Shown here piece after piece: positions 25,782 through 32,878 of a stretch of 64,000 nucleotides of DNA. Source of the stretch: Escherichia phage BAU.Micro_ELP-22. The position numbers and the translations under genes were made by a program. The notes below the pieces were generated by a model. That model saw only the letters and a list, made by a program, of their open reading frames with translations. It did no database searches and was not told the origin of the DNA. The stretch's first letter is position 1. Each line of letters opens with the position of its first letter. The stretch lies in the sequence record OR699282.2; one strand, given 5' to 3'.

Positions 25782-26192
25782 ATGATTGAAATGGAAGGAA
25801 CTCTGGTGTATGATCCAGACCGTGGCACTATGAAAAAGAAGAAGGACTTCTGGTTAGTACTACAACTTCCATTACAGTTGGTTCGATACTACCAGTACTT
25901 CATCAGAACTGACTTACATATTGATATTAAAGACCCACAATGGGGAGCACATGTCAGTATCGTTCGTGGTGAAGTGCCACCAAATCCAGAGTACTGGAAA
26001 AAGTACGATGGAATGAAAGTAAAGATAAAGTTCAATCCTTGTATTGAGATAGTAAAAGATAAAAAGAATCCAGGTTCATTCTTTATCATTGAATTTGAAG
26101 ATGATTTCATCACACATATTAGAAATGAACTAGGACTACCAACCAAGTACTTTAAATATCACATCACTGTAGGTAGAACCTACTACGATTAA
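25782..26192 (+). CDS. 2H-phosphoesterase family protein (LigT / cyclic phosphodiesterase / Acb1-like), 136 aa
   Basis: Two H-h-[ST]-h motifs (AHVSIV near residue 57 and YHITVG near residue 127) about 70 residues apart, the hallmark of the 2H fold. Confidence 0.5.
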   Translation: MIEMEGTLVYDPDRGTMKKKKDFWLVLQLPLQLVRYYQYFIRTDLHIDIKDPQWGAHVSIVRGEVPPNPEYWKKYDGMKVKIKFNPCIEIVKDKKNPGSFFIIEFEDDFITHIRNELGLPTKYFKYHITVGRTYYD

Positions 26193-26360
26193 TGTGGTTT
26201 TTATGGTAAATATATCTTGTAATAAAATAAAAATATGCTATACTACTTAAACATTTGAAAAGAACGTTTTTGTACTGTAGAAAGTCCGATGAGGCTTTTG
26301 CAAATGGCCTCTTTGCCATCTTTGTGATTGCCCATCTTAACAATCAACAAAGGAGGCGTT

Positions 26361-27287
26361 TTGAAACAAGCGAAAAAAGCACTGAAAACTAAGACTACTT
26401 ATGGTGTTCTAGTTTGCACAGTACTTGTCGCTGCGATTGGATTTTATGGTTTTTCTCAAAATGATCGTGTATCATCATCGGACGAAAGTCAGGTACACAA
26501 TTTAAAACCACAAGTTACGCAAATTCAAAAGCAGGAATTACCAAAGGTAGAAATATCAAAGGATGTTCCACGCGGCGAGAAGCATTATACGGTTCAACCT
26601 GGTGATAGTTATTATTCTATTGCTAAAAAGTTTAAACCTAAAAATGTACAACTTGAAGAGTATGTTATTTTGTTGAAAAATATCAATTTAAATGCTACTC
26701 TTCATACTTCTCAGGGTATCTTTATCCCAACAAAAGAGGATTTGAAGAACGTATTGTTACCAGATGTGACTGTACTGTTTGATTATAATGATCCAGAAAT
26801 TGTCAATCACATCAAAGAAGCTGAAGGTTCAATTGAATTTCAGTCCAAGAACAAACGCCGTTTACTTGGTGGGAAAGTCGGAGTTCCTTTCCACAATTCT
26901 AAATTTCATCCTTACAAGGACATGAAAGGTAATTATACAATAGGTTATGGGCATTATTTGGGTAGAAAAGAATCTGATGCGATTAAGTACAGAAACGGTA
27001 TTACCAAAGCTCAAGCCAATAAACTTTTAATGCAAGATATGAAAAGAACATATAATGACTTTTTATTATTGATGCAGAAAAAAGAAGCAGTAAATCTGAC
27101 CAAAGAACAACAACGTATTCTTTATGAAATGTCCTATACAATGGGTGTTGATAAATTAGCAACGTTTAATAAACTTTGGAAAAGTGTGAAAAATGATAAC
27201 CCTAAGAAATTTAAAAAAGAAATTATGAATTCCTTATGGTATCGTCAAGTTACAAACCGAGCAGATTTGTTGTTAAGTTCACTCTAA
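26361..27287 (+). CDS. membrane-anchored LysM-domain lysozyme (GH24, T4 lysozyme-like catalytic region)
   Basis: N-terminal hydrophobic segment (YGVLVCTVLVAAIGFYGF), LysM-like HYTVQPGDSYYSIAKKF, then YKDMKGNYTIGYGH and WYRQVTNRADLL matching T4 lysozyme motifs from memory. Start set at TTG 26361 after AGGAGG; ORF track 26328 is also TTG. Confidence 0.6.
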   Translation: MKQAKKALKTKTTYGVLVCTVLVAAIGFYGFSQNDRVSSSDESQVHNLKPQVTQIQKQELPKVEISKDVPRGEKHYTVQPGDSYYSIAKKFKPKNVQLEEYVILLKNINLNATLHTSQGIFIPTKEDLKNVLLPDVTVLFDYNDPEIVNHIKEAEGSIEFQSKNKRRLLGGKVGVPFHNSKFHPYKDMKGNYTIGYGHYLGRKESDAIKYRNGITKAQANKLLMQDMKRTYNDFLLLMQKKEAVNLTKEQQRILYEMSYTMGVDKLATFNKLWKSVKNDNPKKFKKEIMNSLWYRQVTNRADLLLSSL

Positions 27288-27303
27288 AAAAGGAAGGTGA
27301 AGT

Positions 27304-27636
27304 ATGCTAAATCTAAATATTCAAGGCAACGTTGATATCACTCCAGCAATCCAAGATGCTATTTACAATGAAGCAAAAAGTCTGGATAAGTACCGTACTT
27401 CTTCAGTACTAGACATTGGTGTTCATGTTAAGAAAGAGCATAAAACTCAATATGCTGTAACTTTAACTGCTGGTAGTAAATCAGTAACTGCTGATGATGC
27501 TGATTTGTATAAAGCAATTGTTGAATCTTTTGATAAGATGGAAACTGTATTCAGTAAAGACAAAAGCATTAAATTACACCGCCGAAACCATCCAGAACAC
27601 CCAGTTCTTGATGATTTGACAGAAAACGAAGAGTAA
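27304..27636 (+). CDS. hpf: ribosome hibernation promoting factor homolog (HPF/YfiA family)
   Basis: MLNLNIQGNVDITPAIQDAI...LDKY...V.VKKE.KT...A.G...A...D.YKAIVESFDKME...K.KSIKLHRRNH aligns along its length with E. coli HPF from memory. Confidence 0.6.
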   Translation: MLNLNIQGNVDITPAIQDAIYNEAKSLDKYRTSSVLDIGVHVKKEHKTQYAVTLTAGSKSVTADDADLYKAIVESFDKMETVFSKDKSIKLHRRNHPEHPVLDDLTENEE

Positions 27637-27649
27637 TATATATACTAAA

Positions 27650-27677
27650 GGGACAGATTAATTCTGTCCCTTTTCTT
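27650..27677 (+). terminator. intrinsic terminator (gggacaga-ttaatt-ctgtccc + T-run)
   Basis: 7-8 bp perfect stem plus TTTTCTT after hpf. Confidence 0.6.
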
Positions 27678-27691
27678 ATGGAGTTTTAATT

Positions 27692-28087
27692 ATGAATTAT
27701 TCCTGGATGGAAATTGTAAAATCTCTAATATCAACACATGATATGGACTTACCTGAACACCTAGTTATTAATAGATGGTACTATCCATATCCAGATAACC
27801 GTTGTGTTGGGATTGGATTTTTTATTAATGAAAAATCTCAATATATTGGATTAATTGAAGATTATACAAAAACCAACATTGCGTTCTCTATTGAGTTGAA
27901 TGTAGATCACATAAAATACTACACCAATAAAATGGACGAAGACGATGGTGATGTTATAATTCCAGCAGAAATAGACGAAGCTTCATTTTTTCAGTTATCA
28001 TTAATTCATGATGTATCTGATATTACTTATGATAATGTGAAAGACCTTTTTATATTGTACAATAAACTGTATAATTACTTTTTGTAA
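27692..28087 (+). CDS. hypothetical protein (131 aa)
   Basis: ORF with GGAG RBS. Confidence 0.45.
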   Translation: MNYSWMEIVKSLISTHDMDLPEHLVINRWYYPYPDNRCVGIGFFINEKSQYIGLIEDYTKTNIAFSIELNVDHIKYYTNKMDEDDGDVIIPAEIDEASFFQLSLIHDVSDITYDNVKDLFILYNKLYNYFL

Positions 28088-28100
28088 TGGAGATAAATTT

Positions 28101-31345: not shown

Positions 31346-31391
31346 ATGTGAAGAACAAAAAGTTCTTCTTAACAATTTGGGAGATACTATT

Positions 31392-31634
31392 ATGCTCAGT
31401 TTTCGTGAACAATTAGCAAAAGGTCAATTTCAGGCTAAAGCTCAAACTAATATTCCTAAAAAATCTGCATTTTTAGGAACAATTACGGAAGATGGATTTT
31501 GTGATTATGATGCACCAGAAGATTCATGGTACATTACAAAAGACACAAAACGCAGTAATAGACTTCACAAAAGTACAATAGCTAGAAAGCATCGAAAAGA
31601 ATTAAAGAAAATCCGTTTCGGTGAAGAAGAATAA
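31392..31634 (+). CDS. hypothetical basic protein (about 80 aa)
   Basis: Start moved to the Met with GGGAGA RBS (ORF track 31377). Confidence 0.4.
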   Translation: MLSFREQLAKGQFQAKAQTNIPKKSAFLGTITEDGFCDYDAPEDSWYITKDTKRSNRLHKSTIARKHRKELKKIRFGEEE

Positions 31635-31643
31635 TTTAAAATA

Positions 31644-31672
31644 AGGACTCTGATCACAGAGTCCTTTCTTTT
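31644..31672 (+). terminator. intrinsic terminator (aggactctg-atca-cagagtcct + T-run)
   Basis: 9-bp perfect stem plus TTCTTTT. Confidence 0.6.
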
Positions 31673-31683
31673 CGGAGAATATA

Positions 31684-32160
31684 ATGATTCATGAACACCG
31701 AGGTAATCTGTTTGAATTATTCAGTACTGTTACAGATGATAAAACAGCAATACATATAATTGCTCATGGTTGTAACGCACAGGGTAAAATGGGTTCAGGT
31801 TTTGCAAAAGAGCTAAGAAATCGTTACCCAATGGCATATGATGATTATAAAGCATATGAAAAGGAAATGGGATTTCTTAGAATTGGACAAATTGCATATT
31901 CAGCAATTAACGATAATTTGATTATTGCAAACTGTATTACCCAAAAAATGTACGGTAATGACGGTGCTAAATATGTCAGTTATGATGCAATCGACGATGT
32001 GTTCAAACATCTAAATTATTTTTGTAAAGTTGATCGAGATGTTCATGTACACTTCCCGAAAATTGGAGCCGATTTGGGCGGCGGTAACTGGAACGTTATC
32101 AAAGAAATCATTGATCACCGACTGGTCAATGCAGAAAAACACTTATACATTCTAAAATAA
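31684..32160 (+). CDS. macro-domain-like protein (ADP-ribose binding/processing)
   Basis: IIAHGCNAQGKMGSGFAKELR resembles the glycine-rich phosphate-binding loop of macro domains; by memory only. Confidence 0.4.
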   Translation: MIHEHRGNLFELFSTVTDDKTAIHIIAHGCNAQGKMGSGFAKELRNRYPMAYDDYKAYEKEMGFLRIGQIAYSAINDNLIIANCITQKMYGNDGAKYVSYDAIDDVFKHLNYFCKVDRDVHVHFPKIGADLGGGNWNVIKEIIDHRLVNAEKHLYILK

Positions 32161-32170
32161 ACAAAAGGAC

Positions 32171-32488
32171 TTGACAAAAATGACTATGACCGTTAAACTA
32201 CTAAACATCAATAACATTGGCCCAGTACTAGCAGTTCTACAAACCGATTCTGCTGAAGCTGTTGTAGTTAACTACCCAGCACAACTAGGGACTGACGAAA
32301 ATGGTGAAATCATTCTTCGTGATTATCTAGAGTTTGTTAGTATGGAGAAAAATGTTATTTTTTATAAATCCAACATTATTAGTGTTAGTGATGCAAACCC
32401 TGCATTAGTTGATGCTTATGTGGATGCTATTAAAGCAATCGAAAACACTCCAAAAGTTTTCGTTCCTGAGAATAAAATCATTCTATAA
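32171..32488 (+). CDS. hypothetical protein (105 aa)
   Basis: ORF; no motif. Confidence 0.4.
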   Translation: MTKMTMTVKLLNINNIGPVLAVLQTDSAEAVVVNYPAQLGTDENGEIILRDYLEFVSMEKNVIFYKSNIISVSDANPALVDAYVDAIKAIENTPKVFVPENKIIL

Positions 32489-32500
32489 TAGAGGTATATA

Positions 32501-32878
32501 ATGGCTGCTAATGACGTTAAAGTAAAAACTATCCAAGCTATCGTAGTACTGAAAGATTCTACACCATCCCCTAAAGAATTAGTAATGGCTGGGATGACTA
32601 TGTTACATCAATACAACCCTGAATCACCTAACTATGTTCAAGAATACGAAGCTAAGAAGTTTAAAGAACATTGGCAGTCATGGATTAAAGATAATGAAAT
32701 GGAGCAGGTAGTTTATGCTGCTGATGACATTTTCGAACTGGAACAAATTGAATATCTAGCTGGTCAGCAATCAGTACCATTGAGCATTTTCGGTAATGGT
32801 GAAGAAGTTCTGGTATTGGGACCATTCACTGCTGATGATATCATTCACTTACTGAGTAATTGTAAGAAAATTGAATAA
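32501..32878 (+). CDS. possible Pth2-family peptidyl-tRNA hydrolase-like protein
   Basis: IVVLKDSTPSPKELVMAGMTMLH near the N-terminus and VLVLGPFTADDIIHLLSNCKK at the C-terminus resemble Pth2 patterns; weak, by memory. Confidence 0.25.
   Translation: MAANDVKVKTIQAIVVLKDSTPSPKELVMAGMTMLHQYNPESPNYVQEYEAKKFKEHWQSWIKDNEMEQVVYAADDIFELEQIEYLAGQQSVPLSIFGNGEEVLVLGPFTADDIIHLLSNCKKIE

What the first reader, a model, noticed from the sequence alone, without database searches (positions are those of the whole stretch)
25782..32878. Scattered set of enzymes that together could form an RNA-repair or ADP-ribose-metabolite pathway
Within 7 kb, interleaved with small unknown ORFs: 2H phosphoesterase (25782), ribosome hibernation factor (27304), CCA-adding enzyme (29232), NUDIX hydrolase (30421, frameshifted), glutaredoxin (30855), macro domain (31684) and a possible Pth2-like hydrolase (32501). 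In eukaryotic tRNA splicing, Appr>p is processed in turn by a 2H cyclic phosphodiesterase, a macro-domain phosphatase and a NUDIX ADP-ribose pyrophosphatase, while CCA enzymes repair tRNA 3' ends. The same chemistry could equally destroy ADP-ribose-derived defence signals or reverse ADP-ribosylation. No RNA ligase, polynucleotide kinase or 2'-phosphotransferase was recognised in this window, so the pathway is incomplete here and the grouping is a hypothesis.
Basis: inference. Interest (0 to 1): 0.6.

Follow-up and report, generated by a model that had tools for sequence, protein, structure and literature searches.

The report
Jumbo-phage accessory genes, not one pathway
This stretch of a giant E. 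coli phage really does carry the seven listed RNA-, ribosome- and ADP-ribose-handling genes. They are an inherited, loosely grouped set of separate support and counter-defence tools already described for jumbo phages, not a dedicated pathway.

Summary
The window is an Asteriusvirus jumbo coliphage, 99.8% identical to phages UB and E9.1. All seven domain calls hold:
- a 2H phosphoesterase with both His motifs and a 2H fold;
- HPF;
- a CCA-adding enzyme that lacks the HD domain;
- a NudE-type Nudix split by a real 1-nt insertion shared across the genus;
- a GrxA-like glutaredoxin;
- a macro domain;

The single-pathway reading is only partly supported.
- The genes lie in several transcription units and are interleaved with a lysozyme and lineage-specific ORFs.
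- Six genes of the surrounding 23 kb (three of them in the 7-kb stretch) match T4's nrdC.11–rI.-1–tk.4–e–nudE–gene 1 accessory region, so the grouping is largely inherited.
- The macro is a homolog of T4 Tk.4 (AdfM), reported as an anti-DarTG2 factor.
- The genome has T4-type Pnkp and Rnl1 about 50 kb upstream and an RlaP nucleotidyltransferase 13 kb upstream, but no Tpt1/KptA. A yeast-type Appr>p route is therefore not required.
- Sister genera place an RNA ligase and a DUF2828 protein next to the 2H gene.

Jumbo-phage comparative genomics (Iyer et al. 2021, 2022) already proposed these roles. The most interesting by-product is the conserved Nudix frameshift.

The parts
11877..13109 (+). RlaP-family Pol-beta nucleotidyltransferase, an RNA-ligase-associated RNA-repair enzyme. 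Homolog of T4 nrdC.11.
   Evidence: PF10127 RlaP, 60.3 bits against a cut-off of 23. BLASTP to T4 nrdC.11, E 9e-14.
25782..26192 (+). Stand-alone mini 2H phosphoesterase of the 2H-SAK family. Annotated as 'hypothetical' in every related GenBank record examined.
26328..27287 (+). LysM plus T4 e-type lysozyme. A bystander inside the block, with its own promoter-like site at 26217-26244.
   Evidence: PF00959 and PF01476. BLASTP to T4 e, E 1e-9. Promoter scan.
27304..27636 (+). Short HPF/RaiA-type ribosome hibernation factor.
   Evidence: PF02482, 41 bits. TIGR00741, 36.3 bits, below its 40.9 cut-off. PDB HPF hits at 5e-7.
27647..27673 (+). Terminator-like hairpin (AAAGGGACAGA / TCTGTCCCTTT) followed by a T-rich tail, directly after the HPF gene.
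   Evidence: Read from the intergenic sequence. A terminator is annotated at the same place in phage UE-S1.
27692..29230 (+). Five lineage-specific small ORFs. They include tandem paralogs at 28277-28687 and 28674-29096. This is a variable spot between the lysozyme/HPF genes and the CCA gene.
   Evidence: Both paralogs match phrog_20693. No significant tblastn match for four of the five; the fifth, 29108-29230, matches Munch (E 8.6e-6), and 28277-28687 has a borderline RaK2 hit (E 0.001).
29232..30344 (+). Class II CCA-adding tRNA nucleotidyltransferase without the HD phosphohydrolase domain.
   Evidence: PF01743 and PF12627. NF008137 matches only positions 1-207 of 409. No HD dipeptide in residues 210-370 (read from the translation).
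30352..30379 (+). Promoter-like site (GGGACA, 16-nt spacer, TG-TATAAT) upstream of the Nudix gene. The -10 region and downstream motif are conserved in GAP32 and Munch.
   Evidence: Promoter scan. Alignment.
30421..30853 (+). NudE-type Nudix hydrolase gene split by a 1-nt insertion. The N-piece is 30421-30483 (frame A, stop at 30508-30510). The shift site is ACA ACA C GGA at 30478-30487. The C-piece runs in frame B to 30853.
   Evidence: The repaired product is 36% identical to T4 NudE over 130 aa, E 9e-18. The Nudix box GKAEGNETFKEAAVRECFEETGY was read from the sequence.
30855..31103 (+). GrxA-like glutaredoxin. Probably a ribonucleotide-reductase reductant and not part of any RNA or ADP-ribose route.
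   Evidence: PF00462. NF008401 GrxA, 67 bits against a cut-off of 84. The role is an inference.
31377..31634 (+). Small basic ORF of unknown function, 68-70% identical across four genera.
   Evidence: tblastn. No Pfam or NCBIfam hit.
31643..31666 (.). Strong 10-bp bidirectional terminator-like hairpin just upstream of the macro gene.
   Evidence: Terminator scan.
31684..32160 (+). Macro domain of the Tk.4/AdfM and BT1257/SCO6735/Poa1p type.
   Evidence: PDB hits: 2fg1 8e-16, 5e3b 8e-12, Poa1p 9e-7, DarG macro 2e-3. The only NCBIfam hit is antitoxin_DarG, 3.9e-8. T4 Tk.4: 30% identity over 123 aa, E 2e-12.
32171..32488 (+). Conserved ORF of unknown function (phrog_527), packed between the macro gene and the Pth2-fold gene.
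   Evidence: No PDB sequence hit.
32501..32878 (+). Divergent Pth2-fold protein. An invariant Asn99 stands where Pth2 has its catalytic Asp.
33125..33931 (+). Neck / head-tail adaptor gene (T4 gp13-like). It marks the downstream border of the accessory block.
   Evidence: phrog_211. Annotations.

Best explanation
The stretch is part of the accessory-gene region of a 121Q/PBECO4-type jumbo coliphage. It is the RaK2-like phages' version of T4's nrdC.11 / rI.-1 / tk.4 / e / nudE / gene 1 region. The genes sit in several transcription units and most likely act as separate tools around two themes.

(1) Keeping tRNA and ribosomes usable.
- The 2H-SAK enzyme opens 2',3'-cyclic phosphate RNA ends. It may stand in for the HD domain that the phage CCA enzyme lacks.
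- The CCA enzyme rebuilds or matures tRNA 3' ends.
- HPF and the Pth2-fold protein act on ribosomes or tRNA.
- RlaP (13 kb upstream) and Pnkp plus Rnl1 (about 50 kb upstream) complete end-healing and sealing.

(2) Undoing NAD/ADP-ribose-based host attack.
- The Tk.4/AdfM-type macro removes ADP-ribose from modified DNA, the DarT2-type attack.
- The NudE Nudix hydrolyses free ADP-ribose, NADH, ApnA or FAD.

The lysozyme and the glutaredoxin are bystanders.

Shown: gene identities, synteny, homology to the T4 genes, absence of KptA, and presence of Pnkp and Rnl1. Inferred: every enzymatic activity and substrate.
For: Identity of the phage. Domain identities.

T4 homologs of six window genes spread over 11.9-34.9 kb:
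- e, E 1e-9
- nudE, E 9e-18
- tk.4, E 5e-11
- nrdC.11, E 9e-14
- rI.-1, E 9e-6
- gene 1, E 0.004
In T4 these genes lie at 55-75 kb.

Function and distribution:
- T4 tk.4 is AdfM. A clean knockout becomes sensitive to DarTG2 (bioRxiv 10.1101/2025.11.20.689424).
- The T4 record describes NudE as active on FAD, diadenosine polyphosphates, ADP-ribose and NADH.
- Several transcription units are predicted.
- Pnkp and Rnl1 are present in all Asteriusvirus genomes listed, including UB and E9.1.
- No KptA in Asteriusvirus.
- The macro family is in 1791 phage records and the 2H-SAK family in 76.
- RNA-repair neighbours of 2H-SAK elsewhere: RNA ligase and DUF2828 adjacent in GAP32, CBB and Munch; RNA ligase, HAD_SAK_2, PTH2 or YqeY within 8 kb on metagenomic contigs.
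- Iyer et al. 2021 and 2022 assign the same roles to these domains in jumbo phages.
Against: - 2H-SAK and a homologous macro lie within 2.2-5 kb of each other in three distant lineages: phage G, Atu_ph07 and a 362-kb metagenomic contig. Random placement would give roughly 1-2% each (my estimate), which hints at real coupling.
- The nearest solved structures to the 2H are viral immune-signal nucleases, not RNA-repair enzymes.
- The window macro is only 30% identical to T4 Tk.4.
- By my reading of the sequences, the macro lacks the TARG1/DarG-type catalytic Lys and Asp positions, and it resembles BT1257/SCO6735/Poa1p more closely.
- In PaoP5 the same macro family sits next to Nampt and Prs genes. 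That points to small-molecule ADP-ribose chemistry.
- No expression or biochemical data exist for this phage.
Confidence: 0.6

Rival explanations
1. A real sequential disposal line for NAD-dependent RNA repair. [quoted passage not shown] The 2H would open this to Appr1p, the Poa1p-like macro would dephosphorylate it, and NudE would split the ADP-ribose.
For: - All three enzyme types are present within 6.4 kb.
- The macro matches yeast Poa1p at 9e-7.
- 2H and macro are close together in phage G, which also has KptA, and in Atu_ph07 and contig L019.
- Asteriusvirus has the Sir2 gene about 33 kb upstream of the 2H.
- Iyer et al. 2022 predict a KptA-like role for that Sir2 clade.
- E. coli K-12 encodes KptA.
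Against: - No KptA in any Asteriusvirus.
- T4-type Pnkp and Rnl1 are present, and that route produces no 2'-phosphate (established knowledge).
- The three genes are in different predicted transcription units.
- The macro family is about 20 times more widespread than this 2H family.
- The T4 homolog of the macro acts against DarTG2.
Confidence: 0.15
2. Immune-signal destruction. The mini-2H would be an Acb1-like nuclease for cyclic oligonucleotide or 2'-5'-linked signals (CBASS, type III CRISPR or similar). The macro and Nudix would degrade Thoeris-type or other ADP-ribose-derived signals.
For: - Acb2/Tad1- and Tad2-like sponge genes lie near 2H-SAK on two metagenomic contigs.
- Iyer et al. argue that phage Macro, NADAR and 2H domains mostly target soluble ADP-ribose derivatives.
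Against: - There is no sequence relationship to T4 Acb1: hhalign probability 1%, BLASTP E 0.11.
- Pfam places the family with the 'Swiss Army Knife' RNA-repair 2H domains.
- The 2H gene lies directly next to an RNA ligase in sister genera.
Confidence: 0.2
3. Pure coincidence. Unrelated leftovers of an inherited hyperplastic region, some of them decaying (frameshifted Nudix, Pth2 fold without its catalytic Asp), with no shared theme.
For: - The Nudix gene is frameshifted.
- Asn replaces the catalytic Asp in the Pth2-fold protein.
- Variable ORFs are interleaved.
- HPF is absent from RaK2 and has diverged beyond BLAST recognition between genera.
Against: - Both Nudix pieces evolve under constraint. 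In the C-piece, 18 of 50 (WPEC5) and 5 of 21 (UE-S1) differences are non-synonymous. The N-piece has 2 synonymous and 0 non-synonymous differences.
- The Pth2-fold family has 41 invariant columns.
- The core genes are kept in four genera.
- RNA-repair genes recur next to 2H-SAK in unrelated contigs.
Confidence: 0.05

Closest known systems
T4 accessory region from nrdC.11 to gene 1 (T4 coordinates about 55-75 kb)
   Same: Six homologous genes lie within about 23 kb in both phages: the RlaP-type nucleotidyltransferase (nrdC.11), rI.-1, Tk.4 macro (AdfM), lysozyme e, NudE and dNMP kinase. RaK2 and GAP32 also keep tk in the block. In both phages the region is made mostly of small genes with no assigned function.
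   Different: Gene order is shuffled. The window adds 2H-SAK, HPF, a CCA-adding enzyme and a Pth2-fold protein that T4 lacks in this region. Here the nudE gene is frameshifted.
Jumbo-phage RNA-repair and NAD/ADP-ribose counter-defence repertoires (Iyer, Anantharaman, Krishnan, Burroughs, Aravind 2021, PMC7824862; Iyer et al. 2022, PMC9503650)
   Same: [quoted passage not shown]
   Different: In the passages I read, those papers describe genome-wide repertoires and specific neighbourhoods such as Sir2-2H-Nudix-cREC-PIN in Serratia phage BF. They do not describe this particular 7-kb block, its T4 ancestry, the Nudix frameshift or the Asp-to-Asn Pth2 paralog.
Yeast tRNA-splicing by-product route (Tpt1, Cpd1 2H, Poa1p macro, Ysa1 Nudix)
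   Same: The three downstream enzyme classes are present, and the macro matches Poa1p at 9e-7.
   Different: The phage has no Tpt1/KptA. Its healing and sealing enzymes are T4-type Pnkp and Rnl1, which need no 2'-phosphate removal. The three genes are not co-transcribed by prediction.
T4 Tk.4 / AdfM, an anti-DarTG2 macrodomain (bioRxiv 10.1101/2025.11.20.689424)
   Same: Homologous stand-alone macro of similar size (158 and 155 aa), 30% identical, E 2e-12. The only NCBIfam hit of the window macro is the DarG antitoxin.
   Different: Activity is untested here. The nearest solved relatives are BT1257, SCO6735 and Poa1p rather than DarG.
Acb1 anti-CBASS nuclease (T4 57B, phage FBB1)
   Same: Same 2H fold and similar size. 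It is the top structural hit.
   Different: No detectable sequence relationship. Genomic neighbours point to RNA repair.
Syntenic block in Mimasvirus-type relatives (GAP32, CBB, Munch, Serratia phage BF)
   Same: Same backbone: 2H, lysozyme, HPF, CCA, NudE, Grx, small ORF, macro, two ORFs, neck.
   Different: Those phages add a PF09414 RNA ligase and a DUF2828 'RNA-binding' protein directly upstream of the 2H. GAP32 and CBB also add a YqeY-like protein between Grx and macro; none is annotated in Munch. Their nudE gene is intact. Asteriusvirus and RaK2 lack these inserts.

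Membership tests
2H phosphoesterase superfamily / Pfam 2H-SAK (PF22547) | Two H-x-T/S motifs | tested here: met
   H57-V-S59 and H127-I-T129. H57 and H127 are invariant, and S59 and T129 are at least 90% conserved in 18 and 27 homologs.
2H phosphoesterase superfamily / Pfam 2H-SAK (PF22547) | 2H fold | tested here: met
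2H phosphoesterase superfamily / Pfam 2H-SAK (PF22547) | Score above the Pfam gathering threshold | tested here: inconclusive
   The window copy scores 25.6 bits against 27, and only the C-terminal half aligns. Most homologs carry a precomputed PF22547 hit.
Acb1 anti-CBASS nuclease family | Sequence homology to T4 57B / Acb1 | tested here: not met
   hhalign probability 1.15%. BLASTP E 0.11.
Acb1 anti-CBASS nuclease family | Cleavage of cyclic oligonucleotide signals | not testable with these tools
Macro domain, Tk.4/AdfM group | Homology to T4 Tk.4 and to solved macro domains | tested here: met
   T4 Tk.4 E 2e-12. 2fg1 8e-16, 5e3b 8e-12, Poa1p 9e-7. Pfam Macro itself scores only 16.4 bits against 22.
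Macro domain, Tk.4/AdfM group | Removal of ADP-ribose from DarT2-modified DNA and protection on DarTG2 hosts | not testable with these tools
   Shown only for T4 tk.4.
Peptidyl-tRNA hydrolase Pth2 (PF01981) | Pth2 fold | tested here: met
Peptidyl-tRNA hydrolase Pth2 (PF01981) | Profile score above threshold | tested here: not met
   The window copy scores 12.5 bits against 23. 9 of 11 relatives match, best E 5.6e-7.
Peptidyl-tRNA hydrolase Pth2 (PF01981) | Catalytic Asp of the D-A-G-x-T motif (Asp86 in S. solfataricus Pth2, from my own knowledge) | tested here: not met
   The invariant N99 of 'FGNGE' aligns with the Asp of 'RDAG' in 2zv3.
Multifunctional CCA addition/repair protein (E. coli Cca type) | Pol-beta head plus RNA-binding body | tested here: met
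   PF01743, 65 bits, and PF12627, 33 bits.
Multifunctional CCA addition/repair protein (E. coli Cca type) | C-terminal HD phosphohydrolase domain | tested here: not met
   NF008137 aligns only positions 1-207 of 409, and the score of 272 is below the 451 cut-off. There is no HD Pfam hit and no HD dipeptide in residues 210-370 (sequence).
Nudix hydrolase, T4 NudE (e.1) type | Nudix box GX5EX7REUXEEXGU and homology to T4 NudE | tested here: met
   Box read as GKAEGNETFKEAAVRECFEETGY. PF00293, 48.5 bits. T4 NudE 36% identical over 130 aa, E 9e-18.
Nudix hydrolase, T4 NudE (e.1) type | Single intact reading frame | tested here: not met
   A 1-nt insertion is present in all six Asteriusvirus copies examined. 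18 of 19 IMG/VR relatives are intact.
HPF/RaiA ribosome hibernation factor | S30AE domain | tested here: met
   PF02482, 41 bits against 23.7. PDB HPFs at 5e-7. TIGR00741 scores 36.3, below its 40.9 cut-off.
Tpt1-dependent Appr>p disposal pathway | An RNA 2'-phosphotransferase (Tpt1/KptA) in the same genome | tested here: not met
   tblastn of E. coli KptA hits 98 phage records. None is an Escherichia or Asteriusvirus phage.
Tpt1-dependent Appr>p disposal pathway | Co-transcription or operonic linkage of the 2H, macro and Nudix genes | tested here: not met
   Terminator-like hairpins at 27647-27673 and 31643-31666, and promoter-like sites at 26217 and 30352. These are predictions only.

The most novel reading that the evidence does not exclude
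The Asteriusvirus nudE gene may be expressed by programmed +1 ribosomal frameshifting at ACA-ACA-C-GGA (30478-30487). The zero-frame A-site codon there is CGG, a rare Arg codon in E. coli (my own knowledge). This would set how much ADP-ribose/NADH pyrophosphatase the phage makes.

Supporting observations:
- The insertion is fixed across the genus.
- The 21-codon N-piece has stayed identical at the protein level, with only synonymous changes.
- The C-piece is under purifying selection.

A further step, less likely, is that 2H-SAK, macro and NudE act in series on ADP-ribose cyclic phosphate made by the phage Sir2 or by host KptA.
Probability: 0.35. Interest if true: 0.55.

Novelty: already known. 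Interest (0 to 1): 0.3.

Why it matters
The finding does not open a new kind of system. These genes are annotated in close relatives, and their possible roles in tRNA repair and ADP-ribose counter-defence have been set out for jumbo phages.

It is useful in smaller ways.
- It gives testable assignments for genes still labelled 'hypothetical' in the Asteriusvirus records examined: a 2H-SAK phosphodiesterase and a Pth2-fold protein without the catalytic Asp.
- It shows that the 'multifunctional CCA' annotation in some records is wrong, because the HD domain is missing.
- It ties the macro gene to the recently described T4 AdfM anti-DarTG2 factor. That predicts these therapy-relevant jumbo coliphages resist DarTG2.
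- It flags a genus-wide frameshift in nudE that may be a new case of recoding.

Tried and rejected
- Sequence search of the 2H protein against the PDB found only chance hits.
- Acb1 membership was rejected by hhalign and BLASTP.
- The GAP32-type RNA ligase, DUF2828 and YqeY proteins were searched in the window by tblastn, with nothing below E 1. A search of all phages found that ligase in no Asteriusvirus.
- KptA was searched in all phages and is absent from Asteriusvirus.
- A phage-type canonical Pth2 used as query does not detect RaK2-like phages. I therefore did not locate the separate Pth2 (ORF188) reported for RaK2 or confirm one in Asteriusvirus.
- HMMs of the conserved small ORFs (25067, 31377, 32171, 32501) found no partners next to 2H or macro genes in 14 distant loci.
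- RNA folding around the frameshift site shows no special structure, z -0.64.
- The window has no tRNA genes and no Rfam families.
- The 105-aa ORF at 32171 has no PDB sequence match.
- Burroughs and Aravind 2016, the source of the 'Swiss Army Knife' naming, is not held in the library. Statements about it rest on Pfam's description and on Iyer et al. 2022.
- The first synteny script failed because loci are bundled in one file. It was rerun.
- My first 'repaired' Nudix construct removed the wrong base and gave GHTHGQ. The correct site is stated from the codon count. The T4 NudE alignment is unaffected.

Full report
**What the window is.** Window 25000-33200 is 99.8% identical to Escherichia phages UB and vB_EcoM_E9.1 and 95.5% identical to 121Q. 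These are jumbo myoviruses of about 350 kb in the genus Asteriusvirus. All genes of the finding lie on the + strand.

**Check of the seven assignments.**
- HPF, 27304-27636. Solid.
- CCA enzyme, 29232-30344. It has the head and RNA-binding domains. It aligns only to residues 1-207 of E. coli Cca, and its C-terminal 160 residues have no HD motif (sequence). Annotations as 'multifunctional CCA protein' in some relatives are therefore over-annotation.
- Nudix. Real and really split. ATG 30421 opens MRYSCGIIFYRDGQILIGHTT, which then runs into TAA at 30508-30510. The Nudix box lies in the next frame.
- Glutaredoxin. GrxA-like.
- Macro, 31684-32160. Weak in Pfam at 16.4 bits. It matches solved macro domains: BT1257 8e-16, SCO6735 8e-12, yeast Poa1p 9e-7, DarG macro 2e-3.

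- An RlaP 'RNA repair pathway' nucleotidyltransferase lies at 11877-13109.
- The window has no tRNA genes and no Rfam families.
- Outside the window, every Asteriusvirus genome listed, including UB and E9.1, has T4-type polynucleotide kinase-phosphatase and RNA ligase 1. In E9.1 coordinates they lie about 23-26 kb before the window start, roughly 50 kb upstream of the 2H gene.
- A Sir2 gene lies about 33 kb upstream of the 2H. In RaK2 it neighbours a second Nudix and NAD-salvage genes.
- E. coli KptA finds 98 phage records, none of them Asteriusvirus.

**Synteny.** tblastn shows one backbone in RaK2, GAP32, CBB and Munch. The order is: 65p365-like ORF, 2H, lysozyme, CCA, NudE, Grx, small ORF, macro, two ORFs, neck, dNMP kinase, sheath.
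- The lysozyme and the structural genes are just as conserved, so co-conservation inside this clade says little about function.
- GAP32, CBB and Munch carry a PF09414 RNA ligase and a DUF2828 'RNA-binding' protein immediately upstream of the 2H. GAP32 and CBB also carry a YqeY-like gene between Grx and macro.
- That ligase is absent from the window and from Asteriusvirus.
- HPF is missing in RaK2. The window HPF and the GAP32 HPF are not recognisably similar by BLAST.
- The ORFs between HPF and CCA are lineage-specific.

**The T4 connection.** BLASTP links six window genes spread over 11.9-34.9 kb to T4 genes that lie at 55-75 kb of T4:
- RlaP to nrdC.11, E 9e-14
- 20406-20846 to rI.-1, E 9e-6
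- lysozyme to e, E 1e-9
- Nudix to nudE, E 9e-18
- macro to tk.4, E 5e-11
- 34296-34922 to gene 1, E 0.004

RaK2 and GAP32 also keep tk in the block. The grouping is therefore largely an inherited accessory region of the T4 superfamily, with the order shuffled and with 2H-SAK, HPF, CCA and the Pth2-fold gene added.

A recent preprint shows that T4 tk.4 is the only T4 gene needed on a DarTG2 host. A clean knockout is sensitised, and the authors name the gene AdfM. The T4 record describes NudE as active on FAD, diadenosine polyphosphates, ADP-ribose and NADH.

**Is there functional linkage beyond inheritance?** The 2H-SAK family has 397 detectable members. Almost all are stand-alone proteins of about 140 aa on large phage contigs. 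I examined nine contexts outside the RaK2-like clade.
- A homologous macro lies 2.2-5 kb away in three of them: phage G, Atu_ph07 and a 362-kb contig. Random placement would give roughly 1-2% each (my estimate).
- HAD_SAK_2 phosphatase lies within 8 kb in three.
- A PF09414 RNA ligase lies within 2 kb in one.
- PTH2 lies within 1 kb in one.
- YqeY lies nearby in two.
- In a Vibrio jumbo phage, CCA and NudE lie within 8 kb.

This supports an RNA-end-healing role for the 2H and a loose tie to macro. However, the macro family is in 1791 phage records and the 2H family in 76. Elsewhere the macro sits next to Nampt and Prs genes (PaoP5) or near a polynucleotide kinase and lysis genes (Sf17). The macro clearly functions without this 2H.

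**Transcription.** Predictions divide the 7 kb into several units (compare annotated terminators).
- A promoter-like site lies before the lysozyme gene (26217-26244).
- A terminator-like hairpin follows HPF (27647-27673).
- A promoter-like site with an extended -10 lies before nudE (30352-30379).
- A strong hairpin lies before the macro gene (31643-31666).
- A further hairpin lies after the neck gene.

Only macro, ORF 32171, the Pth2-fold gene and ORF 32871 are tightly packed.

**Mechanism.** I commit to independent tools on two themes.
- First theme: tRNA and ribosome maintenance. It involves 2H-SAK, the CCA enzyme without HD, HPF and the Pth2-fold protein, working with RlaP, Pnkp and Rnl1.
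- Second theme: reversal or clean-up of ADP-ribose-based attack, by the AdfM-like macro and then NudE.
- The strict yeast-type Appr>p line is unlikely. There is no Tpt1, and T4-type healing leaves no 2'-phosphate (established knowledge of T4 Pnkp and Rnl1).
- The line is not excluded, because host KptA exists and Iyer et al. predict a KptA-like role for the phage Sir2 clade.
- An Acb1-like signal-nuclease role for the 2H also remains open on structural grounds, although sequence and gene context argue against it.
- All activities are inferred.

**Comparison with what is known.** Iyer et al. [quoted passage not shown] They propose both RNA repair and degradation of ADP-ribose derivatives. The RaK2 and phAPEC6 papers note the CCA enzyme, Pnk and RNA ligase, and a possible counter to Prr. 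I rate it as already known, with modest interest.

**By-product: the nudE frameshift.** All six Asteriusvirus copies examined share the extra base, read as ACA ACA C GGA. Of 19 IMG/VR relatives, 18 are intact.

| Comparison with the window | N-piece (63 nt) | C-piece (370 nt) | Intergenic (77 nt) |
|---|---|---|---|
| WPEC5 | 2 differences, both synonymous in the upstream frame | 50 differences, 18 non-synonymous | 16 differences |
| UE-S1 | 0 differences | 21 differences, 5 non-synonymous | 4 differences |

(All counts.) Both pieces look selected. Skipping C30484 restores GHTTGQNHWDLPKGK, which matches GAP32's GHTTGQSHWDLPKGK. No RNA structure accompanies the site. Possible explanations are programmed +1 frameshifting at a rare CGG codon, a split protein, or use of the internal start. 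Only experiments can decide between them.

Noticed in passing
window 30421-30510 (shift site 30478-30487): The 1-nt insertion that splits nudE is fixed in all six Asteriusvirus copies examined and absent from 18 of 19 related IMG/VR contigs. The N-terminal piece shows only synonymous changes and the C-terminal piece is under purifying selection. This makes it a candidate programmed +1 frameshift at ACA-ACA-C-GGA, where the zero-frame codon is the rare CGG.
   Followed up: partly
window 11877-13109: RlaP-family RNA-repair nucleotidyltransferase (PF10127, 60 bits), homolog of T4 nrdC.11.
   Followed up: yes
window 29232-30344: The CCA-adding enzyme lacks the HD phosphohydrolase domain of E. coli Cca. 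'Multifunctional CCA protein' annotations in related GenBank records are therefore over-annotation. In Vibrio phage 2.275.O a separate HD-domain gene lies two genes after the CCA gene (L007:16426-16884).
   Followed up: partly
window 28277-28687 and 28674-29096: Tandem overlapping paralogs (both phrog_20693) of unknown function. The first has only a borderline RaK2 tblastn hit (E 0.001) and the second has none in RaK2, GAP32, CBB or Munch. The interval between HPF and CCA is a variable spot, holding HNH genes in GAP32 and other ORFs in Munch.
   Followed up: no
window 31377-31634: An 85-aa basic protein, 68-70% identical across four genera, more conserved than the macro or 2H genes. It has no family assignment and lies between a weak and a strong terminator-like hairpin.
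   Followed up: no
L004:8796-11744 (GAP32), L005:8230-11742 (CBB), L006:8758-11797 (Munch): Sister genera carry a PF09414 RNA ligase and a roughly 500-aa DUF2828 'RNA-binding protein' directly upstream of the 2H gene. In CBB an HNH endonuclease gene sits between the two. GAP32 and CBB also carry a YqeY-like gene between Grx and macro. Asteriusvirus and RaK2 lack them.
   Followed up: partly
window 27304-27636 compared with L004:14675-15010: The HPF genes of Asteriusvirus and GAP32 occupy the same position but share no significant pairwise similarity (E 0.035). RaK2 has no HPF there. Either the gene diverges very fast or it was replaced.
   Followed up: partly
L044:1-3480 (Pseudomonas phage PaoP5) and L043:214-3774 (Shigella phage Sf17): The same macro family lies directly downstream of ribose-phosphate pyrophosphokinase and Nampt genes in PaoP5. 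In Sf17 it is part of a 264-aa protein located 2 kb from a polynucleotide kinase gene.
   Followed up: no
L015:12536-12760 and L017:1763-2005: Genes with Acb2/Tad1-hairpin and Tad2-like domains (immune-signal sponges) lie within 4-6 kb of 2H-SAK genes on two metagenomic big-phage contigs. L017 also encodes a ribosomal protein S21.
   Followed up: no
window 18778-19254: Strong match to DUF7325 (185 bits), a family of unknown function.
   Followed up: no
L012:20144-25680 (RaK2): RaK2 has an NAD module: a cytidylyltransferase-like gene, Nampt, Sir2 and a second NudE-like Nudix. The Sir2 is conserved in Asteriusvirus about 33 kb upstream of the 2H gene, just outside the window.
   Followed up: partly
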